Assembly (NCBI GenBank): GCA_018221205.1
Contig: JAAOYF010000046.1
Coordinates: 1,999 to 65,998, forward strand
Direction of reading: 5' to 3'
Source: Candidatus Woesearchaeota archaeon
Lineage (GTDB): Archaea; Nanobdellota; Nanobdellia; Woesearchaeales; WJIZ01
DNA length: 64,000 nucleotides
Shown: positions 1 through 36,610 of the stretch, piece after piece
Position numbering within the stretch: the stretch's first letter is position 1
How the letters are laid out: every line of letters starts with the position of its first letter
Translations under genes and position numbers: made by a program
Notes under the pieces: generated by a model
The model's database searches: none
The model's input: only the letters and a program-made list of their open reading frames with translations
Told to the model about the DNA's origin: nothing

Positions 1-2
1 GA

Positions 3-1184
3 AAAGCAAAAGGATTCAATACTCTGCTTATCAATACCATAGAGCACTATTTCAATGGCCCAGCAAACTATGCTGGTGAAATCCCTTTTAATGACCCTAA
101 TGATTGGTCAACCATCAATGAAGCCTATTGGCAACATGCAGATTTCATCATTCAAGAAGCACTCGATAGAGACTTCTTATTGTTACTTACACCATCATAT
201 GTAGGATATAATTGTGGAAGTGAAGGATGGTGTGCAGAGATGAAAGCGCAAACCAATGCACAAATGTATGCCTATGGAGAATTCATCGCAAATCGATATA
301 AGGATTATCCGAATATCTTATGGGTTGCAGGAGGAGATGTAGGCTATGCCCCGATTATGGGGACAGCATATGAGAGGATGGACAATGTCATCTTAGGGAT
401 GGGGTCTATCGATAGCACCATACTCGTCACAGCTCACACCTCACGCAACCGTGAAGCAGCAGTGGATTATAATGAACCGTGGTTAGATGTTACTAACACA
501 TACACGGATTGTGATACTATAGAACGATTGACCAAATCAGATTATGATCGAACGACTGTACGGCCCTATTTTCATATAGAAGGATGGTATGAGGGCGAGC
601 ATAGTACGCCTCCTTCTTGCCTTGTTGGACAAGCTCTCTATCCTCTACTCGGCGGAGCAATAGGACATATGTTTGGCAACAACCCTATCTGGCCATTTAA
701 TAGTGGATGGGATGGAAGCAGCGGCATCGAAAGTCCTGGATCGTACATGATGGGGCATGTTGCTGATTTAATGAATTCTCGACAATGGGGAAGTTTTGTC
801 CCTGATTATAGCCACAGCATTGTCACGTCGGGAAATTTTGATATTAACGGCGATTATGTGGCTGCAGCGAGCAATGGAGAAACCGTCATGGTGTATACGC
901 CTAGCACTGCTTCCTTCACTGTCGATATGTCTCAGATCTCTGGGAGCACTGCTCAAGCATGGTGGTATGATCCCTGGACTGGGTCTGTTACTGATCTTGG
1001 AACTTTTTCAACTTCAGGCACGCAATCCTTTTCAGCACCACAAGGATCATTTGTCCTTGTTCTAGATGATGCAAGCAAAGGATTTGGTGCTCCTGGTTCA
1101 ATCCCTGATCGCGGCGCGATTACAGTAGATGCAGCACACCCTGAATGGTTTGTCTATGAAGATGGCAGTCCATTGTTCATCTGA
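3..1184 (+). CDS. DUF4038/GH140-like TIM-barrel glycoside-hydrolase-like protein, 5'-truncated by the window start; C-terminal beta-sandwich (putative collagenase-type binding domain)
   Basis: Frame 0 is open from nt 3 (KAKGFNTLLINTIEHYF...) to the TGA at 1182-1184, and the ORF-track M at 180 is internal. GFN/IWVAGGD-type TIM-barrel motifs are followed by a beta-rich C-terminus (FTVDMSQISGSTAQAWWYDPWTGSV). Confidence 0.5.
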   Translation, partial: KAKGFNTLLINTIEHYFNGPANYAGEIPFNDPNDWSTINEAYWQHADFIIQEALDRDFLLLLTPSYVGYNCGSEGWCAEMKAQTNAQMYAYGEFIANRYKDYPNILWVAGGDVGYAPIMGTAYERMDNVILGMGSIDSTILVTAHTSRNREAAVDYNEPWLDVTNTYTDCDTIERLTKSDYDRTTVRPYFHIEGWYEGEHSTPPSCLVGQALYPLLGGAIGHMFGNNPIWPFNSGWDGSSGIESPGSYMMGHVADLMNSRQWGSFVPDYSHSIVTSGNFDINGDYVAAASNGETVMVYTPSTASFTVDMSQISGSTAQAWWYDPWTGSVTDLGTFSTSGTQSFSAPQGSFVLVLDDASKGFGAPGSIPDRGAITVDAAHPEWFVYEDGSPLFI

Positions 1185-1304
1185 GGTGCAGGAGAGCCAG
1201 AAGATTTCTTATATCGGGGAACAAGAAATGCAGATGGCACCAGAACAGGAGATCAAATAGCTTTAATCAACAAAATTGCATCTACAGGTGCGAATAGCAT
1301 TTAC

Positions 1305-2297
1305 ATGCAAATGGTAAGGAGCCACGGAGGAGATGGCCCAGCAGACCATAATCCCTTCATCAATTCAGATCCAACTCAAGGACAGGATCAGGATATCTTG
1401 GATCAGTGGGAGATCTGGTTTGATGAGATGGATAAAAATGATATTGTTATTTACTTATTTTTCTATGACGACGATATGAATTCATGCAGTAGTGGGTTAG
1501 GATGGTGTATGCAAAATGGAGAATTGCATCCTACTGAAAAAGTGTTCATAGAGGAGATTGTCAACAGATATGAACACCACAAAAATATTATATGGATCAC
1601 GATGGAAGAATATCAAGAGGATAATAATGGGGATGATATTGCGCGCCATAGCAAATTAGCAGAAACAATCAGAAATGCTGATGACAATAACCATCCTATC
1701 GCTGTGCATCAATTATCTGGATTAACTTTTGATTTTCCAGATGACCCCAATGTTGATCAGTTTTCCATTCAATGGAAAAAAAGTACTCCCCAAGAGAATC
1801 ATAATGATATGGTAACTGCATGGAATAATGCTGCAGGAAGATTTAACCTTAATCTTGCTGAACCTATAAATACCTGGGGTACAGGAAAGGTTTCAAGAGA
1901 TAAATTATGGGCGATTGCAACTGGTGGTGCGTATGTCATGCCCATAGCTTGGGATATCGCTTCTACATCTGTTGCAGACTTGACTGATTGTGGTGTTTTG
2001 AAAGGATTCTTTGAATCTACAGATTTATTGAATCTTGCGCCGCATGATGAACTGGCTTTTGGCGGAACACAATGGGTATTGGCTAATCCTGGGAATTCCT
2101 ATATTGCATACACTAGTTCTTTGATTGGAGATATGGGCATTAGCGGAATGACTGCTGGAACATATGATTTCACCTGGCTGGATATCCCTTCTGGAGTAAA
2201 AGTTGAGCAGACTGGTGTCAGTGTAAGTGCTGGTGATCAGAGCCGGGTCAAGCCTTTTGGGATAGGGAATGAGTTGGCTGTGTATATCAGACGATAA
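1305..2297 (+). CDS. Second DUF4038/GH140-like glycosidase-like paralog. Its N-terminal segment (HPEWFVYEDGSPLFI*GAGEPEDFLYRG) lies in frame on both sides of the TGA at 1182-1184, so the gene is probably interrupted or was fused to the upstream ORF
   Basis: ORF-track 330 aa. FVYEDGSPLF-x-GAGEPEDF resembles the conserved N-terminus of DUF4038 domains (DG-PFF-LGDTAWEL). A TIM-barrel-like core runs NIIWITMEEYQ...HPIAVHQ. There is no in-frame start codon between 1185 and 1305. Confidence 0.45.
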   Translation: MQMVRSHGGDGPADHNPFINSDPTQGQDQDILDQWEIWFDEMDKNDIVIYLFFYDDDMNSCSSGLGWCMQNGELHPTEKVFIEEIVNRYEHHKNIIWITMEEYQEDNNGDDIARHSKLAETIRNADDNNHPIAVHQLSGLTFDFPDDPNVDQFSIQWKKSTPQENHNDMVTAWNNAAGRFNLNLAEPINTWGTGKVSRDKLWAIATGGAYVMPIAWDIASTSVADLTDCGVLKGFFESTDLLNLAPHDELAFGGTQWVLANPGNSYIAYTSSLIGDMGISGMTAGTYDFTWLDIPSGVKVEQTGVSVSAGDQSRVKPFGIGNELAVYIRR

Positions 2298-2302
2298 TTC
2301 TG
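2237..2302 (+). repeat. Left copy of a ~65-nt imperfect direct repeat, covering the 3' end of the glycosidase-like gene (KPFGIGNELAVYIRR*)
   Basis: gatcagagccgggtcaagccttttgggatagggaatgagttggctgtgtatatcagacgataattctg recurs at 3726-3795 with a few substitutions. Confidence 0.7.
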
Positions 2303-2387
2303 ACGACAGATTTTTCAATAGGGGTTATTATTATAAATCCTTTGAGAAATAGGAAGATTTAAATATAAGATATATTTACATTAATCT

Positions 2388-3008
2388 ATGAGAACTATAG
2401 TTTTACTTGATTTATTAAAAGGTATACATACAATTAAATCTATTATGGATATATTAAATATAAATAAAGAGGGGGCAATCTATTACGTTCATCGATTGCG
2501 AAAGAAGGGATATGTGAAGACTACGTATTTGAGAAACAAGACAAGAGTGTATCATATCTCCCCCGAAATCCGCCTTGGAGGGACAACGTATGAAGAAGCG
2601 CTAAATGCCCATTCACCGATAAAAGTAGCAACTACGACAGACTATCGTATTTTCGGAAAAAAACTCATGTCAGAGGATGTCCTCATTTATACTATACAAT
2701 CCCAAAGCGTGAGAAAAATTACAGCCGCATTGGCTTTATTCCGCAAGATTTCTGATTGGTCCTATCTCTATAGGTTAGCAAAATGCCATTCCCTTGAAAG
2801 GGAGGTTGGCGCCTTGTATGATGTATCAAGAATGATTATGCGAACAAGAAGAATGCCTAAACGATTCAGGAATCATGCATTACCAAAGAGATATAGTCGT
2901 TTCTCCGATATTGTTCCGAAATTACGATCCAAACATTTTAGAAACATTGAAGAAACCTGGAAAGTACACCTTCCATTCAATAAACAAGATCTTGAGGCAT
3001 ATACATGA
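2388..3008 (+). CDS. Winged-HTH protein, AbiEi-like antitoxin/regulator candidate
   Basis: ORF-track 206 aa with an N-terminal wHTH-like segment (IMDILNINKEGAIYYVHRLRKKGYV). Its stop overlaps the start of the downstream nucleotidyltransferase ORF (ATGA at 3005-3008). Confidence 0.4.
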   Translation: MRTIVLLDLLKGIHTIKSIMDILNINKEGAIYYVHRLRKKGYVKTTYLRNKTRVYHISPEIRLGGTTYEEALNAHSPIKVATTTDYRIFGKKLMSEDVLIYTIQSQSVRKITAALALFRKISDWSYLYRLAKCHSLEREVGALYDVSRMIMRTRRMPKRFRNHALPKRYSRFSDIVPKLRSKHFRNIEETWKVHLPFNKQDLEAYT

Positions 3009-3658
3009 TAACTGTCGAGGAACAGCAAGTACTGCTCATAAGCATAGCGAAAAGACTATCAAAACCCCTTATTGCTTATGCTATCGGAGGAACAGCAATG
3101 ATGTTTTTGGGCATAAAGGATACTACAAAGGACATTGATCTTGTGTTTGATCATAGGGCTGAACGGGAGATGTTTAAGAAAGCCATTTCTGAGTTGGGTT
3201 ATGAGAAAATTGATTCAAGAGCTGCCTATGGGGAGAAGAAGAACATTCCTGAGATGTTTTATCGAGACGATGAACGTTTTGATCTTTTTTTGAATGAAGT
3301 CATTTCATTCGTATTCTCAGATGAGATGAAAAAACGTGCGACAAAAACAATGCAGTTCTCTGATAATCTTATCATTAAGGTTGCAGATGTTCACGATCTT
3401 ATTCTTATGAAATGCTCTACTGACAGGGTGAAAGATCAGGATGATGCCCGAGCAATCATTGAACGATCTCCGATTGATTTTAAGATTTGTGTTCAGGAAG
3501 CGAAAGAACAAATTCAATTAGGCAAAGAGAAAGCAGCATTTGAGCTCGGTTGCTTTCTGGAGGATCTTAAGAATGAGCTTAATGTACCTGTGCCCCAAAG
3601 CGCTTTGGATGGTCTTTTCAGCATTGTTAAATCACAAGCTGCGAAGAAGATGAAATAA
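3005..3658 (+). CDS. Minimal nucleotidyltransferase, AbiEii/DUF6036-like toxin candidate
   Basis: AYAIGGTAMMFLGIKDTTKDIDLVF is the GGTA...R.S.DIDL nucleotidyltransferase signature of AbiEii-type proteins. The gene is translationally coupled to the upstream wHTH ORF. Confidence 0.5.
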   Translation: MITVEEQQVLLISIAKRLSKPLIAYAIGGTAMMFLGIKDTTKDIDLVFDHRAEREMFKKAISELGYEKIDSRAAYGEKKNIPEMFYRDDERFDLFLNEVISFVFSDEMKKRATKTMQFSDNLIIKVADVHDLILMKCSTDRVKDQDDARAIIERSPIDFKICVQEAKEQIQLGKEKAAFELGCFLEDLKNELNVPVPQSALDGLFSIVKSQAAKKMK

Positions 3659-3725
3659 GCCAAAGGTTCTACTATCTGGAACGTGGCACCAGCCATCTTA
3701 GAATGAGATATTATGGTTGAACGGT

Positions 3726-3795
3726 GCTTAGCGTTGGGTAAAGCCTGCAGGTATCGGGAATGAGTTGGCTGTGTATATCAGAAAATAATTTTGGA
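3726..3795 (+). repeat. Right copy of the direct repeat, a relic duplicate of the glycosidase gene 3' end (reads KPAGIGNELAVYIRK* in frame)
   Basis: ggtaaagcctgcaggtatcgggaatgagttggctgtgtatatcagaaaataattttgg matches 2237-2302 including the stop-codon context. The two copies bracket the AbiE-like pair. Confidence 0.7.
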
Positions 3796-3863
3796 AAGAT
3801 TTATATATACAATGTAGTTTATTATTAAAATGTATTGTATACTTAATAATCTGGGTGAGTAGA

Positions 3864-4139
3864 ATGGAAGTGGCTATAACAAAAATATCTCGAAATGGAC
3901 AAGTAGTCATCCCTTCTGAAGTCAGGAAGGATGCGGGAATAAAACCATCAACAAAATTCATTGTCTTTAATCAGGATGGAAATATCTTATTGAAGCAGCT
4001 TAGGAAGGAATCTTTAGGCAAAGATATGGAATTGATAGAGAAAGTAATGAGGAGCGAGGAGCAGATTAAGAAAGGCAAAGTCGTGAAGGCTAAAACCACT
4101 ATGAGTGATGCGGATATCGATGATCTTTTAATGACCTAA
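3864..4139 (+). CDS. AbrB/SpoVT (MazE-like) family antitoxin
   Basis: MEVAITKISRNGQVVIPSEVRKDAGIKPSTKFIV matches the swapped-hairpin AbrB consensus (ISSKGQVVIPKEIR..LGI). It sits immediately upstream of a RelE-like ORF. The ORF track starts 3 codons earlier, at 3855. Confidence 0.65.
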   Translation: MEVAITKISRNGQVVIPSEVRKDAGIKPSTKFIVFNQDGNILLKQLRKESLGKDMELIEKVMRSEEQIKKGKVVKAKTTMSDADIDDLLMT

Positions 4140-4140
4140 A

Positions 4141-4386
4141 ATGGAGATTATTTTTTCTGATGAATTCAAGAAAGATTTCAAGAAGATCAAAGATAAACAA
4201 ACCAGATTAAGATTAATCAAACATATCAAGAAATTAGCTTCTTTGCCTGAATCTGGAAAACCATTGAAATATGAGTTGAAGAATCATAGGGGTATAAAGA
4301 TTCCTCCATTTAGAATTATCTATCGCTTAGAGAAAGAGAGGATAGTAATCAATTGTTTTGATCATAGGAAGGATGTTTATAAGTAG
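4141..4386 (+). CDS. relE: RelE/ParE family toxin
   Basis: 81 aa ending PPFRIIYRLEKERIVINCFDHRKDVYK, which is the RelE/StbE signature (R.IY.i.de...V.Vl.IgHRkdvY). Its start is 2 nt after the stop of the AbrB-like ORF. Confidence 0.7.
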   Translation: MEIIFSDEFKKDFKKIKDKQTRLRLIKHIKKLASLPESGKPLKYELKNHRGIKIPPFRIIYRLEKERIVINCFDHRKDVYK

Positions 4387-4467
4387 CACTTTTTGAAACG
4401 TAATATTTATATAACAGTTGTGATATTTTTATTACATATGTTCCAAAAAAGTAACAGGTATAAGATT

Positions 4468-4971
4468 ATGCGGGTTTTCTTTGAAGATCCCTTAAGAAAA
4501 GATTTTCAGCTGAGAGAGATTAGTAGAAAAGTGAATATTGCTCCGACCTCTGTCAAGCGATACCTCCATGAACTTGAGAAAAGTCAACTTATTATCAGGG
4601 AAAAGCATAAGATACATGGCTATCCTATCTATCATGCTCATAGGGATAGCGAAGAATTTACCTTTCTTAAAAGAATAGATACGATGATAGCTCTCAAGGA
4701 GATAGGACTTATTCATTATCTTAGTGAGAAGTGTATGCCAGACGCCATCGTTCTCTTTGGCTCTGCTGCTTTGGGAGAGGACACTAGTGAAAGTGATATT
4801 GATTTATTTGTATTATCTCAAGAGGAGAAATTAGACCTTCGTCTTTATGAGAAAAGATTGAACCGGAAAATCCACGTTTTTTTTAGCGAAAGCCTTAATA
4901 GCCTGAGCAAGGAGCTCAAGAATAACATCCTTAATGGTATTGTACTTAAAGGATATGTCAAGGTTTTTTAG
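4468..4971 (+). CDS. Nucleotidyltransferase (MNT, Pol-beta superfamily) with an N-terminal HTH
   Basis: AIVLFGSAALGEDTSESDIDLFVL is the GS-x9-13-D-x-D nucleotidyltransferase motif. The N-terminal FQLREISRKVNIAPTSVKRYLHELEK is HTH-like. The ORF-track start at 4393 reads through an AT-rich promoter-like stretch, so the ATG at 4468 (MRVFFEDP) is preferred. Confidence 0.7.
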   Translation: MRVFFEDPLRKDFQLREISRKVNIAPTSVKRYLHELEKSQLIIREKHKIHGYPIYHAHRDSEEFTFLKRIDTMIALKEIGLIHYLSEKCMPDAIVLFGSAALGEDTSESDIDLFVLSQEEKLDLRLYEKRLNRKIHVFFSESLNSLSKELKNNILNGIVLKGYVKVF

Positions 4972-4972
4972 A

Positions 4973-5377
4973 ATGGAATTAGTAAGGATAACTCCCGACA
5001 GAGAAAAAGCTCGTGCAATCATGAAAATGGTTAGCTCTACTCTTTCCATGATTGCACAATTGGATATTTCTCAGTTTCCTTCCCATGCCACTAAAGAATA
5101 TTATGACGTGATCAGAGAACTTATCAGCGTCATTATACTTCTCGATGGATATAAGGCCAGGGGAGAAGGAGCGCACAAAAAACAAATTGAGTATCTTGAT
5201 CAGCATTACAAAGAAATCGATAAGTCTGAGATTGTCTTCACTGATGAGCTTCGCGTCATTAGAAACAGGATATCTTATGAGGGGTTCTTTGTTAAAGAAG
5301 GATATATTAAAAGAAATAAGAAGGTTATTACCAACTTTATTATGAAATTGAAGAGTATCATTCAGAAAAAACTATAG
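4973..5377 (+). CDS. HEPN-domain protein, partner of the preceding MNT
   Basis: All-helical 135-aa protein (MELVRITPDREKARAIMKMVSS...GEGAHKKQIEYL...RVIRNRISYEG) immediately downstream of an MNT, which is the classic archaeal MNT/HEPN arrangement. No strict Rx4-6H motif was found, so the assignment is tentative. The ORF-track start at 4934 would overlap the MNT gene. Confidence 0.45.
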   Translation: MELVRITPDREKARAIMKMVSSTLSMIAQLDISQFPSHATKEYYDVIRELISVIILLDGYKARGEGAHKKQIEYLDQHYKEIDKSEIVFTDELRVIRNRISYEGFFVKEGYIKRNKKVITNFIMKLKSIIQKKL

Positions 5378-5428
5378 ATGCAGCTATCTCTTACATTATA
5401 GGTAATTTCCTTGTTATTTCTTCTCTTT

Positions 5429-5613
5429 ATACTTACAAAATAGAATAGGGTTCTTGATAATACTTACAAATAGGAAAATTTCCAAAACATTTATATAGAG
5501 AGATTGCTAAAAGTACTTACAAAATAGGTTACTTAGTATAGTAATTCGTAGCTTACTTACAAATTAGGTAAAAAATGGAGAAGATTCATACTCAGATACT
5601 TACATATAGGGGG
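5429..5613 (+). promoter_or_regulatory. Array of 5 direct repeats of the motif (A)TACTTACA-N2-5-TAGG upstream of the cassette-1 regulator gene; a sixth degenerate copy, CTTACATTATAGG, lies upstream at 5391-5403
   Basis: Copies at about 5429-5449, 5461-5474, 5514-5536, 5554-5574 and 5597-5613. The same motif recurs upstream of the cassette-2 and cassette-3 regulator genes. Confidence 0.6.
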
Positions 5614-5658
5614 GAGTTAGAATAAGTAGAGGCACTATAGTTGGCTAAACGTAAGGGG

Positions 5659-6237
5659 ATGACAGAGAAAACTCCTGTCTTTGCTAATGAGAGTTCTGTT
5701 TTGCAATTAGTCAACTCTGAATCTGATTCTATTACTGAGTCTCTTGCGTTGATTGAGGAGATATCTAAGAAGCATGGAGTAGATATAGGGCATATCACTG
5801 AGATTCTTGAGCACAAGGACAAATACATTGTTCTTCCTGTAGGTTTGTTCAGGAGTAAACTTGGTCCTTTAGAAGCAGTTGTCGGGTATATGAAAGAAGT
5901 TTTGGACCTTAATCTTTCTCAGATTGCACGTTTATTGAACAGAGATGAGACCACCATATGGACAACCTATCAAAATTCTTGGAAAAAAGGGAAGATCATT
6001 GTTGATCTAGAGCTGAAGGATGTTGATTTTGGTGCTTTGAAGATCAAGAAAGAGAACTTTGTTGTTCCCTTATCTGTTTTTGCCAATAGAGAATTGTCTA
6101 TTCTTGAGGCTTTATGTGTGTACTTACGTGAGAATCATGGTCTGAATTATACTATGTTAGGGAAATTGCTAGAGAGAAATGAACGGACTATCTGGACGGT
6201 AGTCAGCAGAGCAAAGAAAAAGTGGACAGAGAGATAG
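5659..6237 (+). CDS. Cassette-1 regulator, a small protein with two tandem sigma-70 region-4 / HTH_10 (Bat-type)-like HTH units
   Basis: Two repeats match L..LE..V.yl.e..gLsy..iA.LL.RdeRTiWT...RAkKK (LGPLEAVVGYMKEVLDLNLSQIARLLNRDETTIWTTYQNSWKKGK and LSILEALCVYLRENHGLNYTMLGKLLERNERTIWTVVSRAKKKW). An AAGGGG motif sits 4 nt upstream of the ATG at 5659, and the ORF track uses a TTG at 5641. Paralogs lie at 36056 and 46478. Confidence 0.6.
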   Translation: MTEKTPVFANESSVLQLVNSESDSITESLALIEEISKKHGVDIGHITEILEHKDKYIVLPVGLFRSKLGPLEAVVGYMKEVLDLNLSQIARLLNRDETTIWTTYQNSWKKGKIIVDLELKDVDFGALKIKKENFVVPLSVFANRELSILEALCVYLRENHGLNYTMLGKLLERNERTIWTVVSRAKKKWTER

Positions 6238-9200
6238 TCAAGCGGATAGTGCAAGAGAGCAAAGAGATGCATGAATGCTCTCGCTCTAAAGTCAAGCTTA
6301 GCTCTAATCTTTTTGCCAATTATGCGAAGAAGAAGAAAGGAAAGATCTCTGAGGAGGAATATGTCGGCTACCTGAAGAAAAAGCATAACGGCCGCACACT
6401 GGATGAATGGATCACTGAAGCGCATAAGCATGGTGAAGAGACGAACAAAGTGTTCCATCAAGATTTCAATTCTTTGGTGAGTTCTTTATCCAGTCCTCGC
6501 TTCACTATGGCTGCGATTATCTTATTGGCCATCTTCTTCCTGCAGTTCTTCACTCCAGGCATCATTGGCTTTGTTACGTTAGAAGAGGCTAATGTGACGA
6601 TTGAGCAAGAGTTTACAGCAAATGCAACGTTTGTTCTTGACGTAAAGAATATCCGCTATCTTGGCTTGCAAGGATATGCAAGCAATGACTTTTCGGGAAG
6701 GGTTTATTTAGATGATGGTGTGCAGAGATATGTTCTTTTAGATTACCTGAGCAAAGAGCTTAGACAAACAGTTCCTGATGCTACAATTGATTTTGAACTG
6801 GTTAAAATAGATATCTCTGATGAAGTGAAGGGCATCGAAGTCCAGGCTGATTTTGATGATGATTCTTTGGCTTGTACAATTTATACCATCGAGAGTGATT
6901 CTGCGACCAATCTTTGTTATGGGTATTCAGGATGCTGCGCATTCATGAATGTTCCTCAGACTGAAGAGCAATGGGATGAGCCTTTGTATGTAAACAAAGG
7001 GAAGTTCGGTGCTGGAGACAGGAATCTGGTGAAAGCACAAGTCGTTTGGGCAAATTATAGTTTAGATCCAGAGAATGCTTATTTTGATCTTGAATATAGT
7101 GATATTATCGGAGTTCCAGTCAATGTCTATTCACAGCTTAGGTTTGTTGATGAATGTGGAGGTGCCTGTTTAATTCAATCTGCTAATCAAGACCATACTT
7201 TAGTTGTTGAAGTGCATTCAGGAAGTTTGTATCTGTCAAATTACAGCTTCAAAGTTGTCGATAAACCGAATAGTCCGCCAGTCTTTACTCCGGTTCCGAA
7301 TATTACTATCAGCCCTCCACGGCCTTTCATCCTGGATTTGAGAGAGTATCTCTCTGATACTGATGGGGATACCTTAAAATTGAGTTATTTCGATTCTCCT
7401 GGATTGATTATTGATTTTGTTGGTATGAATGCTGTCATCCGGGTTGATGATAACTTTACTGGTAGGACTTTTACTTTTTTCACTGCGAATGATTCTGAGT
7501 TGATCGCTATCTCGAATATCATTGAGATTAGTTTAAGTAAGAATGCGACTGTCATTGAGACTCCTAAAAAGGATATCTTTGTTTCTGGACAAGTTGAGAT
7601 CGGCAAGCCTGTTACCTGGAGCCGGAGAGTAGATGTTGCGGATATTTTTGGAGAGTTCAGAGTGAATATCTCTGGGGAAGCGTATAATGTCACGGTCAAG
7701 AAAGTGTTCAATGAGACTTTTGAAGAAGTCTCAGGGGCCAATTTAGAGGTTGTAGAGGATACATTACGTCGAAATATCGCCCGCTTTAAGGAGGATGTTG
7801 CTGATAGGAGGGTTGCTAAGGCATTTGAGAGGCAGCGAGGTATTTTTAGGGATGAACCTATTGATGATGTTGAACTTGTCGTTATGGACCTTTCTCCTGA
7901 GATTGAGATCAGTTTTGAGACTGATGGTCCAGAAGTTGTTGAGGAGATCATCAGTGAGAGTGTGAAGAGAGTTACCATCAGTTCAACTGTGCATTATACT
8001 GATATTCTTTCTTATGCTGATATCAAAGACAGCCCTCAAAGCAGGATTAAGCTCTATTGGTTGGTTAATGGAAGCAGGCAGATTGTTTCTGATGTTACGT
8101 ATGAGGACAGGAACAATAATTCCCTTATTGACAGGATTTATTGGACTGTCCCTTCTCTCAGTTCTCAGACGTATGAGATCATCTTGATCACAAAAGCAGA
8201 TCATCTGGATGCGAATAGGAGCTTTATTGCAGATATCTATGAGTATGTCAAGGAAAAAGATGGTAATTGGAGTTACGGAATCAATGATTCCCAATATGTA
8301 AGAGTGACTTTTGAGCAGGCCTTGGATAATTCCAAGGATATTACTTTATATGCTCGAAGTTTAGGCAGTTCTTCTGTTGAAGTCTATACAGAGAATAATG
8401 ATACTTTGATCACTTCCTTTACTGATATCTCCTCTGAAGACTGGTATAAAGTCTTTTTGACTGAATTAGAAGGAAGCCATGATGTGTTTGACCTTAGAGT
8501 TGTAGGGGATAGTGTTGAGTTCGATTATATTGTCGATCCGGTCGGGCAGGAGAATGTTTCACAGTGGAACAAGACATTCGATGGAACCGGTGGTAGTGAT
8601 ATGGCCAATTCTATCGCTATAGATTCTAACGATAACATCTATGTTGTCGGTGATGGGACTAATATTGTCAGTAGTACGAGCGAGGGTGATTGGTGGATCA
8701 AAAAATTCAACTCCTCAGGCAGCGAAGATACTACTAACTGGAACAAAAGTATTGATGGCGTAACTGGAAAAGATAGTCCCACATTTGTTGCCCTTGATTC
8801 ACAAGACAATGTCTATGTTGTTGGCTATGGTACTAATCTCTCTTCCAGCTCTTCTAATTGGGACTGGTGGATCAAAAAATTCAACTCCTCAGGTAGCGAA
8901 GATACCACCAATTGGAACAAGACGTTTGACGGAGCAGGAAAGGCTGACCAAGCCAGGATAGTTGTCATAGATTCTAATGATAATATGTATGTAGGTGGAA
9001 GTGGATTTAATATTACTGAATCAAATCAAAAAGATTGGTGGATCAAGAAATTCAATTCTTCAGGCAGCGAGGATACTACAAATTGGAACAAATCATTTGA
9101 AAGTTCTGCAGCAACTGATTATCTTCAATCTCTTGCGATAGATAGCAATAACAATCTCTATGCTGGGGGACAGTTTTCACTCGATTTGCTTATCAAAAAA

Positions 9201-12200
9201 TTCAACTCCTCAGGCAGCGAAGATGCTGTCAATTGGAACAAATCTATTGTGGCAGCTACAGGTTCAGCTTTTTACGGTCTGTTCACTGATTCCAACGACA
9301 ATGTCTATGCAGGAATGTCTTCAAATGTCGTCGGTGTCCAGAGCGAGGATGATTGGTGGATCAAGAAATTCAATTCTTCAGGCAGCGAAGATGTTGTTAA
9401 TTGGAACAAAAGCTTTGATGAGGGAACTGCTTGGGCATATGATTATCTTAACTTCATTGCTGTCGACGCAAATGATAATGTTTTCGCTGTTGGGGATATC
9501 GACACTGGCGCAGCAGGCTATAATGATTGGTGGATCAAAAAATTCAACTCCTCAGGCAGCGAAGATGCTGTCAATTGGAACAAGACTTTCAATGCGGGCA
9601 CGAATAAATATGACAGCGCAACAGGTGTTGCCTTTGACAGCTTGAACAATGTCTATGTTTCGGGCTATGGGCAGAATGTTATCAGCGGCACTTCCAGCTA
9701 TGATTGGTGGATCAAGAAGTTTGAAGGTCATCCCATACTTGATACTTCTGCTCCAACTATACTCTTTGTGAACAAGACTGAAGCGAATGGATCCACTATC
9801 ACTGTAAATTATGCTGAGATCAATGTAAGCATCACAGAACTCAATCTGGATGCATTTACCTGGAATTGGAACGGGACGAATTATACGATGTATGATGATA
9901 GCCTGGTGTTGATGCTCAATTTTGACAATGTCTCGGCTCTTGGTGAGAGCAATACATATGTTATTGATGCGAGCAAGCAAAACAATAATGGGCTAGTGTA
10001 TGGAAATGCCTATCCAAATTCTAGTGGAAAATACAGGGGATCATTCGAATTCGGAGGCAGCAGCTCAGATTTTATCAATTTCAGCTCAAATTCAAGCCTT
10101 GATGACCTCAATAACGGAGGATTGACCTTTTCCGCATGGTTATACTTCAGGTCCAGCGGAGGGTTAGACGTCATTTTCAGTAAAGATGCATGGACCAGCG
10201 GATTGATGACGTTTTATATTTCTGATGGAGGAGCCCGAACGCTCCGGTTTATCAAAGATTCTCCGGATCCAGACGTTCGCGCTGACTGGAGCGGAATTAT
10301 CGATCTCGATGAATGGGACCATTATGTGCTTACCTGGAACGGCAGCAACATATCAAGCTCGATTTCGCTCTACAAAAATGGAGCAGAGATTGCGCCATCA
10401 TCAGAGCAAAACGGAAGTGTTCAAACCTGGTCAGATGCAGAGACAGACTTTCTTCTGGGAAGACAGTTCGACGGATTTATGGACGATATCATGCTCTTCA
10501 ATACATCCCTCTCTGCTTCTAAGGCGAAGCAGCTCTATTACTCTAGCCTACAGAAATACGATGCAAACAAATGGGGTTTCTATTCCAATCAAAGCAGTTT
10601 AGCAGATGGCACTTATACTTATCAAGCATATGTGAATGATAGCTTCGGCAAGGCAAATGCTACTGAGTTAAGGACACTCTATGTCGAGGCAGAAGCTCCC
10701 TCAATCAAATTTGTCAATCTTACTGTCGCCAATGGGACTGTGCACATCAAACCACATATCGAGGCGAATGTCTCTATCATCGCAGACGATTTCAGTGATT
10801 TTATCTGGAACTGGAACGGGACCAATTATACGTTCTATGATGATTCATTATCCTTGATGCTCAATTTCGATAATGTTTCTGCTTTAGGAGAGAATGACAG
10901 CCTGGTTGTCGATACCTCTCCTTATGGTAAAAATGGCACTGCCTACGGCAATGCAACACCAAATGTTACTGGCAGGTTCGGAAGAGCATTTTCTTTTGAT
11001 GGTGATGGAGACTATGTTTCTATGGGAACATCGAGTGTCTATAATTTCACTAATGCATCCAATATCACGATTTTGGTATGGGTTTACGCTTATTCTTTGC
11101 CAAGCTATGGGGAGATCATCAACAAGGGCAATACAGAACCAGGCTCTACCAGACAGAATTATGCTATTCAGAGCCAGGATCAGAATATCTCTTTTTTCTA
11201 TCGAGATAGTGCTAATACTGCTTGGGTGGAATATGTGACAGATGCTAGTGTGCTCTCGACAGGATCTTGGCATCATATCGCCATCACTTACAAATTCGGC
11301 ACAGGAAGCTCTGCTAAGATATACGTCAATGGAGCTGAGACATCTGCAACCTGGAGTGGAGGAACAGGCAATGAGGATCCTATGCAAAATGATGAAGAGC
11401 TCTGGATTGGTGCAGTTGATAATGGTGGTGATGACGTGATAGATGAGGAGTGGACTGGGAGAATAGATGGGGTGCGTATGTATAACCGAAGCCTATCATC
11501 GTCAGAAGTCCAACAACATTATTTCTCTAATCTTCGGAAGTATGACACTGATAAATGGAGTTTCTATTCCAATCAGACCAACCTCACCTTAGGCACCTAT
11601 ACGTTCCAGGCATATGCGAATGATACGTATGATAATCCCAATGCGACTGAATTAAGGACGGTTGAGTATAGGGTGAATCCTTATTATGGGAAATTCAGCC
11701 TTCCTCCGACAACCCACTTTAATGTCTCTGCTGATCTTTCGAATATATGTAATGCCACTTTAGCCATCAATGCTATTGGCATGATTGAGTGGAATAATTG
11801 TGTTGATGCGCGGATTGCTAATTTTGATACGTATGTCAATCTTAGTTTCAACAAAGTAAGTGTTGATCCAGTTAATTTAGACTCAAGCTTCAATAGTTCT
11901 GCTAATATTACTCTCTTTTACGTTAATCTTACTAATCCTATCATCCAAAAAGATGGTGCCTATTGTCCTAGCTGTATCATCTTAAACAATGATGGAAATA
12001 ATATCACGTTCAATGCGAGTTCTTTCTCTTCTTATTCTGCTACTGAGAGAACTAATCTTTCAATCTGGGACCTTTCTGATTCACAGACAAGCTATGCTAA
12101 TTTCACCCAGTTCTATGCGAATTATACGAATGCATCAGGTACGATAATTACTACTGGCTATTGTGAGTTCAGACATAATAAGACAGGAAGATGGGCTGCT

Positions 12201-15200
12201 CTAGGGAATATGAGCCTTGGTCCTGGATTGTATAACTGGACTGGTGATTGCGGTTATACTGCAGGAAGGAGCTGCATGCCAGTAGGAAATTATTCTTTTA
12301 ATGTCTCTTGCTTTGATCCTTCTGGTAGTAATGATAACTTAAGTTCGGTTGATAACATTGTTGTTACTGATTATAGCACTTCTTTGGCTATTGAAAATGG
12401 GTCAAGCAGCTATAGCACTGCCCGGAGTGCATATTTCTATGCGAATTATACGACGAGCCATCAGTTCAGCCAAGGGTATGGTGCAGAGATCGGCAGAGTC
12501 ATGCTTAATGTGTCTGGCTTGACACAAGTTAGTACGGTGGATTTCTTCGACTGCCAGAACACTGGAAAAAGGGATTGCATGGTCATCTCTTATCCTTTCG
12601 GCAATGTGACTGTCTTCTATGCAAATGGGAGCCAATACTGGTCCTATCTCGTCACTGGCGGGCAGACTGATGGTGTCGGCAATGGCATTGCTATCGGAGA
12701 TTTGGATAGTGATGGGTATTTCAACGATATCGCTGCTCCCACTACTGATGGTCCGAATTTTATTGTCCTCAATGAGACCGGAGATCTTGTGTTCCAGAGC
12801 AGTTTCGGGGAAATAGCGCAAAATGCTCAGGTCATCGGCATCGGCGATCTGGATGGCGATGGTATAGATAATGATATAGTAGTAAATGCTGGGTCGGAAG
12901 AATTCGATGGCTTTGCAGCATTCAATACCTCTGATGGAAAAACGTGGAACAATAAGTGGAATTACACCGAAGGAGGTGGTTCTAGTTCTGCTGGTCGAAC
13001 GATCCTTATGTATGATTTTGCTGGCACAGCCCATGATGAGGTTGTCGCTAATTGGTTCTTGGGCAGTTGCTGTGAAGCAGATAATAAAGTGGTCTACGGC
13101 AATAATGGATCACTTTTCTTCAATCTTTCAGGTTTTCAAGTCCAAGCAACGAGTCTATTGACCATTGATGTCGATCACGATGGTAAGATGGAATTACTTC
13201 AGTCGGGCTACAATGAATTCAATGTCTGGCTAGCGAACAGTACTGAACTCTGGGATAAGTCTTTCTCAGGCTATTCGTATGATGCGCAGGTTGTTGATCA
13301 GGATAGTGAGGGGTGGGATGATGATATTATCCTTCCTCGTCGTGTGTACCAGCAGTCGGCACTGTTTTTTGAAGCGTATGATAATAGCAGCAATCTTGTC
13401 TGGAGCGTCCAGCTCTCTGATACTACTGATGATCTCTACTCTATAGCTGTTTCTGATATTGATGGGGACGGTATTGAAGAGATTCTTATGGGATCCAATC
13501 AAGGATGGCTCTATATGTTCAATCTCTCTGGTAATATGAGCTGGAGCGAAAATGCTAGCTTGGGCACTATCGGTTCTAAGAATGATCCTTCGCCTGGCAT
13601 TGATCCAGGAGACATCACTGGAGATGGACTGCCTGACTTCTTGGTCGGCTTTGGTGATGGTATCTTCAAAGTGTATCAGGATGTCGGCTGCACTATCGAG
13701 TATAATGACAGCACTGCAGACATGACCTGGAATGAGACGCTCAATAAATGGCAGGCGAGCCGCGTGTTTAGCTCTACTGGTACTTGGGAGTATAATATAA
13801 CATGCTCCAAAGGAGGATATACTAACCAGATTATCTCTTCCACAATTTCCATCAGGGATGAAGCTGCAATAATTAATGAAAACAATACACAGCCTTTGAT
13901 TCCAAACTACAACCAGAATGTAAGCATTTATGCAAATGTAACAGATGCCACCGACGATATCAGCTGGGTAAACTTCACATTGCAAAATCCATCAGGAACA
14001 AATGTAATCAGTTATGAAAACGGAACACAGACAGGAGATATCTGGAATTCAAGTTCTTATATTGTTGATGAAATTGGTACGTGGCTATGGTGGATTAATG
14101 CTTCTTCGTCAGACGGCACCAAAGCAAACAGCTCAGGCTCCTTTACTATCCCTGATGTAAATTTGACTTTTTATTCAAACGAAACCAATACAACTGCTTT
14201 CAGCTTCTTAAACGGCACCTTTACCAATATAAGCTATTCCACCAGTAATAAAGCCATTAGCTTGATTCCTGGCAGAAACAAAGGGAATTACCTCTCTGAT
14301 GTCTTCAACGCCTCTACAAATGCAACATGGGTAAATATTAGCTGGGTTAGCAACAATTTGGAAATTAATCCTAAGGAGCCCCTGGTCAAGGATATGGTGC
14401 TTCTCATGCATTTGAACAATGATTCAGGATTTGGGGAAAACAATAGTTATGTTAAGGACTTTTCTTCATATGGAAATGATGGAACGTGTTCAAATTGTCC
14501 TAAATTTGTCGGCACAGGCTATTTCCAAAAAGCTGCACAGTTTAATGATTCATCATCTAATCAGCTGAACATTCAGAATGACGACAGCATTAGCTTTGCC
14601 AGTGGAGAGACCATTGCAATCTCTTTTTGGGTGAATAAAACAAAGGAACAGGCAAATCAGGCAGTATTGGCTAAAGTAGGCAACAACAACAACGATTATT
14701 TCAATTACTATATTGGAGTAAAAAGTTCTACAGGGGCTTTCAGATTTCAGTACCATAATACTAGCGGAGATATTAATTCATGGAACGGTTCCTCGGGAGC
14801 CATGGCAATGTCATTAAATAAATGGGTTCATTTTGTCATGGTATATACTTATGGTGATGGTCCATCATTTCAGTTATTTAGAAATGGCATTAATGTAACC
14901 TCTCAGGGAGGATGGACATACGGAGACGGCTCAGGGGCGCCAAGTACCAATACAAACACACTCAAAATCGGCAGGGCAGGAAATTGGTGGGGGCACATGA
15001 ACCATGCCAAAATCGATGAACTAGTCATGTGGAACAGAACATTATCAAAAGAGGAAATCTATCAACTTTATTACCGTGGAGCACAAAGACTAAACCTCTC
15101 AATTAGAAGCTGCGACGACTCTGCCTGTTCAGGAGAATCATGGACAGCTATTGATGATTATTCTTCGCAATCAATTGGAATTGCAGACAACTACTATTTC

Positions 15201-36055: not shown

Positions 36056-36610
36056 ATGTTAAAAGACTTGAAAGAGCAGAAAGAGAAGAGGCTTGGTAAA
36101 GTGTATCTGCAGGAAAAGTCCTCTTTAGTGAAGCTAGACAGCCTGTTCTCTGAACTCTCTCAAAAGTATGGCATGGATTATCAAAATGTCGCTCAATTAT
36201 TGAGAAGATTCCAGAGCTATCTCACTATCCCTGCTTCATTGTTCAAGACACGAGTGAGTCCTTTGGAAGCAGTTGTATTATTCTTACACCTTAAGTATAA
36301 GTGTACACAGACACAGATGGCTGAAATCCTTCATAGAGACCATACGACTATCTGGACTACGCTAGATAATGCCTGGAAGAAGACAACCAAAGCACAATTT
36401 CTGCAAAGCATTGAGGAAAGCGAGATATTGATCCCTGTCCACCTGTTATCAAATAGAAGATTGAGCATCTTAGAGGTTGTTGCCTCTTATATCAAAGATA
36501 AATATAGTCTGAAATATCGGGAGATTGCTACTTTATTAGATCGGGATGATCGGACTGTCTGGACTGTTATCGATAGAGCCAGAAAAAAGCTTATAAAGAA
36601 TAGACGATGA
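36056..36610 (+). CDS. Cassette-2 regulator with tandem sigma-70 r4 / HTH_10-like HTH units (paralog of 5659 and 46478)
   Basis: VSPLEAVVLFLHLKYKCTQTQMAEILHRDHTTIWTTLDNAWKK and LSILEVVASYIKDKYSLKYREIATLLDRDDRTVWTVIDRARKKL. There is an ATGA overlap with giant-2. Confidence 0.65.
   Translation: MLKDLKEQKEKRLGKVYLQEKSSLVKLDSLFSELSQKYGMDYQNVAQLLRRFQSYLTIPASLFKTRVSPLEAVVLFLHLKYKCTQTQMAEILHRDHTTIWTTLDNAWKKTTKAQFLQSIEESEILIPVHLLSNRRLSILEVVASYIKDKYSLKYREIATLLDRDDRTVWTVIDRARKKLIKNRR

What the first reader, a model, noticed from the sequence alone, without database searches (positions are those of the whole stretch)
2237..3795. AbiE-like toxin-antitoxin pair flanked by a 65-nt direct duplication of the host gene 3' end
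The 3' terminus of the glycosidase-like gene (...VKPFGIGNELAVYIRR* plus the 3' UTR start ataattctg) is repeated with a few substitutions at 3726-3795 (...VKPAGIGNELAVYIRK* ataattttg). The two copies bracket exactly the wHTH plus nucleotidyltransferase pair (2388-3658). This is the footprint expected when an element integrates into the 3' end of a gene and carries a replacement 3' end, as tRNA-targeting integrative elements do. No integrase is present, which suggests a decayed integrated element or a cassette mobilised in trans.
Basis: seen in the sequence. Interest (0 to 1): 0.55.

Follow-up and report, generated by a model that had tools for sequence, protein, structure and literature searches.

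The report
Mobile toxin-antitoxin cassette insertion scar
A small two-gene toxin-antitoxin-like cassette has been inserted just behind a glycosidase gene of a Woesearchaeota (DPANN) archaeon, pushing the gene's old tail to the far side; the same 1.3-kb cassette moves between related archaea without any recombinase gene of its own.

Summary
Window 2232-2302 and 3723-3793 are a 71-nt direct repeat at 80% identity, with a perfect 27-nt core. A gapped alignment extends it to 2338/3831. It brackets only a wHTH gene (2388-3008) and a nucleotidyltransferase gene (3005-3658). The second copy is a dead gene tail with an in-frame TAG.

The NTase matches DUF2204/DUF6036, not AbiEii/DUF1814. Its predicted fold is closest to the tRNA-modifying toxin MenT1. 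The partner has a generic wHTH and an unmatched C-terminal domain. "AbiE-like" therefore fits the architecture, not the family.

All 80 other DPANN species loci fetched carry the same pair, almost always with different neighbours. Nine of the 65 loci with enough flank on both sides also have locus-specific flanking direct repeats, against about 1% of control placements. Blocks of about 1.33 kb (promoter plus both genes) are 95-97% identical between genomes whose flanks are unrelated or only 82% identical.

In one lineage the pair sits behind pheT. Relatives show the empty site, and one locus keeps the displaced pheT tail. A different cargo at the same site left the same scar, with a donor-type tail on the gene.

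Best reading: an integrase-free, recombination-mediated cassette insertion that displaced the resident 3' end. No empty site could be found for the window itself, and the exact mechanism is inferred.

The parts
3..1184 (+). Glycosidase-like gene, part 1 (Apiosidase/DUF4038 catalytic domain plus Collagen_bind_2 beta-sandwich). It ends at an in-frame TGA (1182-1184).
   Evidence: Pfam PF13204 E 6e-41 and PF12904 E 1e-16. The TGA aligns with Cys of homologue P0122.
1185..2297 (+). Glycosidase-like gene, part 2 (second DUF4038 domain, 'GH2'; NCBI calls it from 1305). This is the host gene whose 3' end is duplicated.
   Evidence: Pfam PF13204. The best non-self homologues are at most 61% identical and the few that carry a source name are bacterial. 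The homologue C-terminal consensus is GDQTW.KP.GIGNELAVYI.R.
2232..2338 (+). Left repeat copy: the functional last 22 codons of GH2, its stop codon, and about 40 nt of downstream DNA.
2265..2291 (+). 27-nt core that is identical in both copies (the other copy is at 3756-3782). Candidate crossover or conversion tract.
   Evidence: run length versus flank divergence discussed in the report
2339..2387 (+). Cassette promoter: TATA box TTTAAATATA at 2358-2367 and an operator-like ATTTACATTAATCT at 2374-2387 directly before the ATG (leaderless layout).
   Evidence: Read from the sequence. The same architecture is conserved in 76 related cassettes. The left edge at -49 matches the -54 edge of the transferred block in L096/L105.
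2388..3008 (+). wHTH protein (206 aa): N-terminal winged helix plus a helical C-terminal domain of unknown fold family. Presumed regulator/antitoxin.
   Evidence: Weak Pfam HTH_27. AF2 pLDDT 86.6. Foldseek finds only MarR/ArsR-type wHTH for the first ~60 residues. It lies directly upstream of the NTase gene in 80/80 loci.
3005..3658 (+). Pol-beta-superfamily nucleotidyltransferase (217 aa; DUF2204/DUF6036), presumed toxin. Its start overlaps the wHTH stop (ATGA).
   Evidence: Pfam DUF2204 23.2 bits (cut-off 20.3) and DUF6036 19.6 bits (cut-off 23.6). Invariant GG(T)...DxD...D and K..TDR.KD.DD motifs. AF2 pLDDT 91. The best PDB fold match is MenT1, E 1e-6, TM 0.58/0.67.
3659..3722 (+). 64-nt tail of the insert, with no detectable similarity to the host gene.
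3723..3831 (+). Right repeat copy: the displaced, decaying GH2 3' end (TAG 3729-3731, stop 3786-3788) plus downstream DNA. That DNA now carries the TATA box (3803-3812) of the next operon.
3855..4386 (+). Neighbouring AbrB/MazE-type antitoxin (3855-4139) and ParE/RelE-type toxin (4141-4386).
   Evidence: Pfam PF04014 E 2e-9 and PF05016 E 3e-12
4393..5377 (+). Neighbouring HTH-fused MNT nucleotidyltransferase (4393-4971) and HEPN-like partner (4934-5377). This is the third TA-like module of the island.
   Evidence: Pfam Polbeta/NTP_transf_2. PADLOC PDC-M05A/B. NCBIfam MntA-like, below cut-off.

Best explanation
Segment 2339-3722 is a self-contained two-gene cassette with its own promoter. It encodes a wHTH regulator/antitoxin and a MenT/AbiEii-like DUF6036-type nucleotidyltransferase toxin. 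The cassette belongs to a family that is widespread in DPANN archaea and moves between genomes as a discrete unit of about 1.3 kb. In this genome it was inserted immediately behind the glycosidase gene by host recombination, not by a cassette-encoded recombinase. The proposed route is as follows. Incoming DNA carried the cassette next to a diverged copy of the gene's tail. It recombined with the resident tail, either by a Campbell-type crossover in the 27-nt identical core or by homology-anchored illegitimate recombination. The gene therefore kept a working 3' end on the cassette's promoter side. The resident 3' end (3723-3831) was displaced to the other side, where it is decaying. The addictive toxin-antitoxin function would then protect the otherwise unstable repeat-flanked insert from loss. 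Shown: the repeat, the cassette unit, its horizontal spread, the recurrence of such scars, and an empty site plus a donor-type tail in sister cases. Inferred: toxin-antitoxin activity, and the exact recombination route in this window.
For: The repeat is real and far above chance. The remnant has an in-frame TAG, and each copy retains different ancestral residues of the family consensus. The two copies are therefore diverged alleles rather than a fresh duplicate. The flanks of the repeat are about 67% identical while the core is a perfect 27 nt. Uniform decay would give such a run with probability about 0.67^27 = 2e-5, which points to a crossover or conversion tract. The pair is adjacent in all 80 loci from other species, and neighbouring genes are almost never shared. 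Flanking direct repeats scoring >=50 occur at 9 of the 65 loci with enough flank, against 2 of 71 loci (4 of 729 placements) for control positions. Cassette-limited blocks: L096 vs L105 is 96.7% over 1333 nt (-54 from the ATG to +11 after the stop) beside pheT at 82.5%. L008 vs L011 is 94.8% over 1340 nt with unrelated flanks. The pheT hotspot: filled and pair-less loci interleave on the pheT tree. L102 is the empty site and aligns colinearly (82%) with the L012 remnant plus downstream gene. In L107 a different cargo left the same scar. Its remnant keeps the resident L106-type end, while the attached tail is another allele. pheT identity to L106 drops from 0.92 to 0.75 toward the junction, while the flank is 0.93. 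The two control-position hits also place a copy of a flanking gene's 3' end on the far side of a 1-2-gene segment. The NTase fold is MenT1-like and its catalytic motifs are invariant. A published precedent exists for recombination that orphans 3' regions (PMC5361080).
Against: No close relative of this genome exists in any searched collection, so no empty site or donor allele is available for this locus. About 85% of cassette loci show no flanking duplication. Homology-anchored recombination predicts co-transfer of donor flank, yet the shared high-identity blocks stop sharply at the cassette edges. That fits a precise unit better than random fragments. The 27-nt identical core is also what a site-specific recombinase acting in trans would leave. 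No circular form was seen in two short contigs. Toxin and antitoxin activities are untested. The host gene may itself be a pseudogene (in-frame TGA), which weakens any argument that selection keeps its tail intact.
Confidence: 0.6

Rival explanations
1. True site-specific integration. The 27-nt core is an att core, and the cassette (or a 1.49-kb circle carrying cassette plus gene tail) was integrated by a tyrosine or serine recombinase encoded elsewhere and acting in trans.
For: A perfect core flanked by partial homology on both sides is the classic attL/attR picture. The target is a gene 3' end. Two independent insertions at pheT (L012 and L107) start their duplications only about 15 nt apart. 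L021 carries a tyrosine integrase about 5 kb from its cassette.
Against: No integrase was found among the window ORFs scanned, and none lies between the repeats at any locus. The flanking repeats differ in sequence and in length (43-175 nt) from locus to locus, with one exception: L020 and L021 share a segment in opposite orientation. The cassette has no conserved terminal motif at its 3' end. Most loci have no repeats.
Confidence: 0.13
2. Target-site duplication. The cassette was pasted into a long staggered break, or inserted by a replication template switch. Both tail copies were identical at insertion and have since diverged.
For: The duplications are made of local target sequence and vary in length. 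Near-identical repeats exist at L074 (42/43). The cassette has sharp, reproducible ends.
Against: In the window, flanks at about 33% divergence surround a perfect 27-nt core, which does not fit uniform decay. In L107 the two copies are 79% identical while the adjacent flank is 93% identical to the sister genome, so the attached tail is foreign. No known enzyme gives 43-175-nt duplications. The L074 repeat lies next to a DDE transposase and may have another origin.
Confidence: 0.12
3. Relic of tandem gene duplication. A third glycosidase copy once followed GH2, and all but its last about 65 nt was deleted or overwritten when the cassette arrived.
For: The locus already holds two tandem DUF4038 domains. 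The similarity includes non-coding DNA after the stop, as a tandem copy would.
Against: No further glycosidase-like sequence lies upstream of 3723, so the deletion end would have to coincide exactly with the cassette edge. The same cassette shows the same kind of scar next to unrelated single-copy genes such as pheT and a DUF2779 gene.
Confidence: 0.08
4. The cassette is an autonomous mobile element. Its own wHTH protein and Pol-beta-type NTase mediate excision or insertion, and the long variable duplications are its signature.
For: A discrete 1.33-kb unit with reproducible ends spreads between genomes with no other gene. Flanking duplications are enriched at this cassette. Conserved paired operator-like sites lie at the left end.
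Against: There are no terminal repeats or 3'-end motif. The closest fold is a tRNA-modifying toxin. Scars of the same kind occur around unrelated cargo. Most copies have no duplication.
Confidence: 0.05

Closest known systems
MenAT / AbiE nucleotidyltransferase toxin-antitoxin systems (MenT1-4 of M. tuberculosis; AbiEi-AbiEii)
   Same: A two-gene operon with an upstream DNA-binding or antitoxin gene overlapping a downstream Pol-beta-fold NTase. The NTase motifs are invariant. The predicted fold is closest to MenT1 (8an5/8an4; E 1e-6, TM 0.58/0.67). MenT toxins block growth by modifying tRNA acceptor stems (PMC7450476, PMC10435456).
   Different: The toxin matches Pfam DUF2204/DUF6036, not AbiEii/DUF1814, and has no PADLOC or NCBIfam hit at all. 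The partner's C-terminal domain has no AbiEi or other PDB match. The family is archaeal (DPANN, with ~30%-identical pairs on haloarchaeal and methanogen plasmids). Activity is untested.
Homology-facilitated illegitimate recombination and 'orphaned 3' regions' (T6SS effector-immunity arrays, Rhs/CDI loci)
   Same: Incoming DNA anchored in a conserved gene brings new cargo and displaces the resident 3' part downstream as an orphan. No dedicated recombinase is needed. The result is a functional tail plus a remnant (PMC5361080). L107 shows exactly this mosaic.
   Different: The known cases are bacterial. Here the hosts are DPANN archaea, the cargo is a minimal TA cassette, and the remnants are only 40-175 nt. 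The sharp cassette-limited identity blocks and the 27-nt core are not predicted by simple HFIR.
Integrative elements that target gene or tRNA 3' ends and carry a replacement 3' end (attL/attR)
   Same: Direct repeats bracket the insert, with an identical core and partial homology on both sides. The gene remains intact.
   Different: No integrase lies in or near the insert. The insert is 1.4 kb. The repeats differ in sequence and length at almost every locus, so there is no shared attP.
Integron gene cassettes and TA cassettes of superintegrons
   Same: Small mobile units that often carry TA genes and accumulate side by side. The window has three TA-like modules in a row.
   Different: The cassette carries its own promoter, has no attC-like 3' element, and has no integron integrase.

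Membership tests
AbiE (AbiEi/AbiEii) type IV TA / abortive infection | Toxin belongs to the AbiEii/DUF1814 family (PF08843) | tested here: not met
   Pfam at E<=0.01 gives only DUF2204 and DUF6036. The NTase has no PADLOC hit of any kind at E<=1 and no NCBIfam hit.
AbiE (AbiEi/AbiEii) type IV TA / abortive infection | Pol-beta NTase catalytic motifs (GG[ST]...DxD, third acidic residue, C-terminal K..R..D motif) | tested here: met
   Invariant G28 G29 T30, D43 D45, D93, and K136/T139 D140 R141/K143 D144/D146 D147 in 27 homologues.
AbiE (AbiEi/AbiEii) type IV TA / abortive infection | Antitoxin of AbiEi type: N-terminal wHTH plus AbiEi C-terminal domain | tested here: inconclusive
   A wHTH is present. 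AbiEi_4 matches only 4/33 homologues, best E 0.014. Foldseek against PDB finds no AbiEi (6y8q) match for the partner, and the C-terminal domain is unmatched.
AbiE (AbiEi/AbiEii) type IV TA / abortive infection | Bicistronic operon, antitoxin first, genes overlapping | tested here: met
   ATGA overlap at 3005-3008. The gene order is conserved in 80/80 loci.
AbiE (AbiEi/AbiEii) type IV TA / abortive infection | Toxin arrests growth and the antitoxin neutralises it; phage defence | not testable with these tools
   Needs expression experiments.
MenAT (MenT NTase toxins) | MenT-like three-dimensional fold | tested here: met
   The AF2 model (pLDDT 91) has MenT1 8an5_B as its best PDB match: E 1.1e-6, prob 1.00, TM 0.58/0.67.
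MenAT (MenT NTase toxins) | Nucleotide addition to tRNA acceptor stems | not testable with these tools
   Needs tRNA sequencing or in vitro assays.
Pfam DUF2204 / DUF6036 nucleotidyltransferases | Score above the Pfam gathering threshold | tested here: met
   DUF2204 scores 23.2 bits against a cut-off of 20.3. DUF6036 scores 19.6 against 23.6 for the window protein, but PF19502 is precomputed for most homologues and NCBI names relatives 'DUF6036 family'.
Integrase-driven integrative element (attL/attR at a gene 3' end) | Integrase or recombinase gene in or next to the element | tested here: not met
   The insert holds only the two genes. No Phage_integrase or recombinase hit was found in the window ORFs scanned.
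Integrase-driven integrative element (attL/attR at a gene 3' end) | Flanking direct repeats with an identical core | tested here: met
   27-nt perfect core inside the 71-107-nt repeat.
Integrase-driven integrative element (attL/attR at a gene 3' end) | The same att sequence is shared by related elements | tested here: not met
   The repeats at the other loci differ in sequence and are 43-175 nt long; only L020 and L021 share a segment, in opposite orientation. There is no conserved 3' motif.
DDE/IS-type transposon | Transposase, terminal inverted repeats, fixed-length target duplication | tested here: not met
   No transposase in the insert, no TIR, and variable repeat length.
Integron gene cassette | attC recombination site at the 3' end; usually promoterless | tested here: not met
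   No conserved sequence downstream of the NTase stop in 74 cassettes. The cassette carries its own TATA promoter.
Recombination that orphans a gene's 3' region (HFIR-type) | One tail contiguous with the gene, a second orphaned tail beyond the cargo | tested here: met
   Window; L012; L107; L068.
Recombination that orphans a gene's 3' region (HFIR-type) | The attached tail is of donor type, the orphan is of resident type, and the anchor gene has mosaic identity | tested here: inconclusive
   Met in the sister case L107. For the window no relative exists, so only the unequal pattern of ancestral residues in the two copies is available.

The most novel reading that the evidence does not exclude
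The wHTH-NTase pair is not merely cargo. It would be a minimal autonomous mobile element of a new kind, whose own DNA-binding protein and Pol-beta-type nucleotidyltransferase promote insertion. That would explain its razor-sharp 1.33-kb unit, its spread between genomes with unrelated flanks, and the enrichment of long, variable target duplications around it.
Probability: 0.05. Interest if true: 0.85.

Novelty: new variant of a known kind. Interest (0 to 1): 0.5.

Why it matters
DPANN archaea have tiny genomes, no cultured genetic systems and few recognised mobile elements. How they gain accessory and defence genes is therefore poorly known.

This locus and its relatives give a concrete, checkable picture. 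An uncharacterised archaeal branch of the MenT/AbiE-type NTase toxin systems behaves as a minimal promoter-plus-two-gene cassette. It hops between lineages without a recombinase, lands next to conserved genes, and sometimes leaves a displaced gene tail.

This supplies three things. First, a candidate new toxin-antitoxin family to test. Second, a natural marker (orphaned 3' tails) for tracing gene flow in DPANN metagenomes. Third, evidence that recombination-driven 3'-end displacement, known from bacterial T6SS/Rhs loci, also shapes archaeal genomes.

Tried and rejected
**Searches for relatives of this genome (all empty)**
- Exact-protein look-ups of the window's NTase and glycosidase found nothing on record.
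- The 27-nt core has no exact match in the metagenome collection.
- The nearest NTase is 62% identical and the nearest glycosidase 61%.
- An empty site for this locus therefore cannot be found with these data.

- GC and tetranucleotide deviation of the insert gave no signal: GC 0.375 against 0.417 for the window, and the 82nd percentile for tetranucleotide distance.
- There is no second copy of the segment in the window.

**Other leads that went nowhere**
- The repeat does not extend upstream of 2232.
- There is no tRNA in the window. No tRNA or Rfam family lies at the repeats of other loci.
- No relative of the NTase was found in IMG/VR viral contigs.
- Two short contigs carrying the cassette show no terminal overlap, so there is no sign of a free circle.
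- One exact NTase (P0017), seen on 24 contigs, always sits in the same neighbourhood, so that population shows no ongoing jumping.
- The cassette has no terminal inverted or direct motif at its 3' end.
- The pheT tail is only slightly more alike among cassette-bearing loci than expected (+0.04). This is suggestive but not decisive.
- The PDB sequence search for the NTase gave nothing.
- Foldseek of the wHTH protein against PDB and viral structures gave only generic wHTH hits.
- Literature searches for DUF6036 and for Woesearchaeota TA systems found nothing.

**Rejected: chance**
- The repeat scores 83 against a null maximum of 40.

**Rejected: a decayed large element**
- The same minimal unit recurs alone in all 80 loci fetched.
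Full report
**1. Observation**

In window 1-8000 the one outstanding direct repeat is 2232-2302 vs 3723-3793. It is 71 nt long, 80% identical without gaps, and the copies are 1491 nt apart.

All 14 mismatches lie outside a perfect 27-nt core (2265-2291 = 3756-3782). With gaps the similarity runs on to 2338/3831, about 40 nt beyond the stop codon. It does not extend upstream of 2232 (p = 0.18).

The alignment score is 83. Mismatched flanks of related loci give mean 25, sd 3.6 and maximum 40.

- Copy 1 is the real end of the DUF4038/apiosidase-like gene: ...GDQSRVKPFGIGNELAVYIRR*.
- Copy 2 reads GA*RWVKPAGIGNELAVYIRK*. It has a TAG at 3729-3731, so it is a dead remnant.

**2. Anatomy of the locus**

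The window comes from a Candidatus Woesearchaeota MAG. The NTase is 100% identical to NCBI GOV09_05690.

Between the repeats lie the following parts:

- A 49-nt promoter, with a TATA box at 2358-2367 about 26 nt before the ATG. This is a leaderless layout.
- A 206-aa wHTH gene (2388-3008).
- A 217-aa nucleotidyltransferase gene (3005-3658). Its start overlaps the wHTH stop (ATGA).
- A 64-nt tail.

Upstream are two tandem DUF4038 glycosidase domains, joined in frame through a TGA. Downstream follow an AbrB/MazE-ParE/RelE pair and an HTH-MNT/HEPN-like pair, so the site is a small toxin-antitoxin island.

The window has no tRNA gene. No recombinase was found among the ORFs scanned. The insert is not compositionally odd, and there is no second copy in the window.

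**3. What the two genes are**

*The NTase*

- It passes Pfam's threshold for DUF2204 and falls just short for DUF6036. Its homologues are annotated DUF6036.
- It does not match AbiEii/DUF1814, and it has no PADLOC or NCBIfam hit.
- Twenty-seven homologues keep the Pol-beta motifs invariant: GG(T), DxD, a third Asp, and K..TDR.KD.DD.
- A confident AlphaFold model (pLDDT 91) is closest to the M. tuberculosis toxin MenT1 (E 1e-6, TM 0.58/0.67). ANT(2'')-Ia, JHP933 and TM1012 follow.
- MenT toxins are DUF1814-family NTases that block translation by modifying tRNA acceptor stems (PMC7450476, PMC10435456).

*The partner protein*

- It has a generic MarR/ArsR-type winged helix in its first ~60 residues.
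- Its helical C-terminal domain has no PDB or viral match.
- The AbiEi_4 profile is only a weak hit, in 4 of 33 homologues.

*Related pairs elsewhere*

Pairs at about 30% identity, each with a gene directly upstream of and abutting the DUF6036 NTase (annotated as wHTH in one, hypothetical in the other), sit on haloarchaeal and methanogen plasmids.

*Conclusion*

The pair works like an AbiE/MenAT-type toxin-antitoxin module in architecture and fold class. It is not a demonstrable member of the AbiE families, and toxicity is inferred.

**4. The pair is a discrete, mobile cassette**

A scan of one genome per species returned 80 DPANN loci. In all 80 the wHTH and NTase genes are adjacent, at 48-61% identity to the window. 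Neighbouring genes are almost never shared between loci.

Upstream, most cassettes have a TATA box plus a CTACATTTAAC-like motif at -15 and again at -65. Nothing is conserved at the 3' end, so there are no terminal repeats or att-like ends.

Sharply bounded blocks show recent horizontal spread:

| Comparison | Block | Block limits | Surroundings |
|---|---|---|---|
| L096 vs L105 | 96.7% over 1333 nt | -54 from the wHTH ATG to +11 after the NTase stop | pheT next door is 82.5% identical; the other flank is unrelated |
| L008 vs L011 | 94.8% over 1340 nt | about -95 to the NTase stop | no shared neighbour |

The L096-type and L105-type arrangements are each seen in two independent assemblies (L095/L096 and L105/L134).

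The window's insert begins 49 nt before the ATG, which is the same edge.

**5. Flanking duplications recur**

I compared 900 nt on each side of the pair at every locus with enough flank. Nine of 65 other loci score at least 50, against a null maximum of 40. Their repeats are 43-175 nt long and 65-98% identical.

The repeat sequences differ from locus to locus, except that L020 and L021 share a segment in opposite orientation.

The same test at 729 control placements elsewhere in those loci reaches 50 in only two loci. Fisher's test gives p = 0.026 per locus, and about 2e-5 for effectively independent placements.

Several of the repeats are 3' ends of a flanking gene:

- The glycosidase gene in the window.
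- pheT in L012.
- A DUF2779 gene in L066.

Not all repeats need share one origin. L074's 43-mer lies next to a DDE transposase.

The two control hits also place a copy of a flanking gene's 3' end on the far side of a one- or two-gene segment:

- In L068, the tail of a DRG-type GTPase gene is duplicated around a GH130 gene.
- In L021, the tail of an integrase gene is duplicated around two unknown genes.

The process is therefore not peculiar to this cassette.

**6. A sister case with filled and empty sites**

*The pheT site*

In L012, L014, L017 and L025 the pair lies convergent to, and directly after, pheT. A metagenome scan with PheT gave 17 close relatives:

- 8 have the pair behind pheT.
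- 4 have no NTase match (L097, L104, L106, L107).
- 5 have only a distant paralogous NTase nearby, with a longer wHTH gene read beside it in L102.

On a tree of the pheT body, filled and pair-less loci interleave with 90-100% bootstrap support. The cassette is consistently more alike than pheT among filled loci.

*The empty site and the L012 scar*

- L101 and L102 have pheT followed directly by a 60-aa membrane-protein gene.
- L012 has pheT, then the cassette, then an 85-nt pheT-tail remnant, then the same 60-aa gene.
- The L012 remnant plus downstream region aligns colinearly with L102 at 82% (295/359).
- The remnant keeps the L102-type C-terminus (..LIL..). All cassette-bearing genes instead end ..LIK*/..LIN*, within about 5-25 nt of the cassette edge except in L105/L134, where a 157-nt spacer intervenes.
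- L096 retains a 17-nt vestige at the same junction.

*L107: a different cargo, the same scar*

L107 carries a different cargo, a 134-aa ORF, at the same site. It left the same scar.

- The L107 remnant keeps the L106-type end. The last 21 nt are identical, and the flank beyond is 93% identical to L106.
- The tail attached to pheT is a different allele (..RLIKDK*).
- pheT identity to L106 falls from 0.92 to 0.75 toward the junction.

In L107, therefore, the attached tail and the cargo came in together on foreign DNA, and the resident tail was displaced.

**7. Mechanism inferred for the window**

The two copies are about 67% identical on either side of a perfect 27-nt core. Uniform decay of an initially identical duplication would give such a run with probability about 2e-5.

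Each copy also keeps different residues of the family consensus GDQTW.KP(A/G)GIGNELAVYI.R. The remnant keeps W and A. The attached tail keeps D and Q. They therefore look like two diverged alleles that share a crossover or conversion tract.

The best-supported account is recombination between the resident gene tail and incoming DNA that carried the cassette next to a diverged copy of that tail. Two routes are possible:

- A Campbell-type single crossover in the core.
- Homology-anchored illegitimate recombination, as seen in L107.

Toxin-antitoxin addiction would then protect the repeat-flanked insert from loss by recombination between the repeats.

Several points weigh against this account or remain open:

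- There is no relative, and so no empty site, for this locus.
- About 85% of cassette loci have no scar.
- The sharply cassette-limited identity blocks are not what random donor fragments would give.
- A recombinase acting in trans would leave the same core.
- A long target duplication cannot be excluded.
- A relic third glycosidase copy cannot be excluded.

**8. Comparison with known systems**

The function resembles MenAT/AbiE NTase toxin-antitoxin systems. Membership of AbiE failed on the defining Pfam family and is unproven for the antitoxin.

The scar resembles attL/attR of integrative elements that replace a gene's 3' end. However, there is no integrase and no shared att sequence.

The closest process precedent is recombination that orphans 3' regions in bacterial T6SS effector-immunity arrays and Rhs/CDI loci (PMC5361080). 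IS, transposon and integron memberships fail on terminal repeats, fixed duplications, attC and recombinase.

**9. Verdict**

The labels 'AbiE' and 'decayed integrated element' are not supported.

What is new is modest but concrete. An uncharacterised DPANN branch of NTase toxin-antitoxin modules behaves as a minimal, recombinase-free mobile cassette. Orphaned gene tails are a recurrent footprint of gene gain in these archaea.

Noticed in passing
window 1182-1184: An in-frame TGA joins the two DUF4038 glycosidase domains. It aligns with a Cys (TGY) of homologue P0122. The second domain's N-terminal strands lie upstream of the stop. Possible readings: a nonsense-mutated pseudogene, a sequencing error, or (less likely) Sec/read-through.
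   Followed up: partly
window 5420-5620: At least three, possibly up to six, copies of a TACTTACAAA(A/T)TAG motif in the intergenic region, upstream of the HTH gene (5641-6237) and the 9167-aa ORF. It looks like an operator array.
   Followed up: no
window 6222-33725, 36607-42864, 48312-57308: Giant ORFs of 9167, 2085 and 2998 aa. The first is rich in repeated modules and N-x-S/T sequons. Two of them are preceded by small sigma70-region-4-like HTH genes (5641-6237 and 36056-36610); a similar one lies at 46478-46951, about 1.4 kb upstream of the third.
   Followed up: no
window 3855-5377: Two further TA-like modules sit directly beside the cassette: AbrB/MazE-ParE/RelE, and HTH-MNT with a HEPN-like partner matching PADLOC PDC-M05A/B. 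Together they form a three-module island.
   Followed up: partly
L105 3167-3323 (= L134): A 157-nt spacer between pheT and the cassette made of four consecutive perfect or near-perfect hairpins, absent from relatives. Possibly a small structured or MITE-like insert.
   Followed up: no
L021 5044-5116 / 6776-6848 and L020 3959-4079 / 5584-5708: The flanking repeats of these two loci share a conserved segment (GTGCTTACGAAGAGGGTG and neighbours) in opposite orientation relative to the cassette. It has no tRNA or Rfam match and is of unknown nature.
   Followed up: partly
L021 9506-9601 / 11460-11555: The 3' end of a tyrosine-integrase gene (11460-12599, minus strand) is duplicated 1.95 kb away, around two genes with no Pfam match. 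This may be an att-type arrangement of another element.
   Followed up: partly
L074 3626-4987: A DDE transposase gene lies immediately upstream of the cassette, whose 43-nt flanking repeats are 42/43 identical. IS-mediated mobilisation is possible at this locus.
   Followed up: no
L099 4655-5666, L102 7133-8636, L103 about 7297-7845: A distant paralogous cassette lies in the same pheT-downstream region: an NTase 28-31% identical to the window's, beside a longer (287-aa) wHTH protein read in L102. The region is a hotspot for NTase modules.
   Followed up: partly
L068 3194-3251 / 4838-4895: The 3' end of a DRG/Obg-type GTPase gene is duplicated around a GH130 glycoside phosphorylase gene. This is the same kind of scar with unrelated cargo.
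   Followed up: partly
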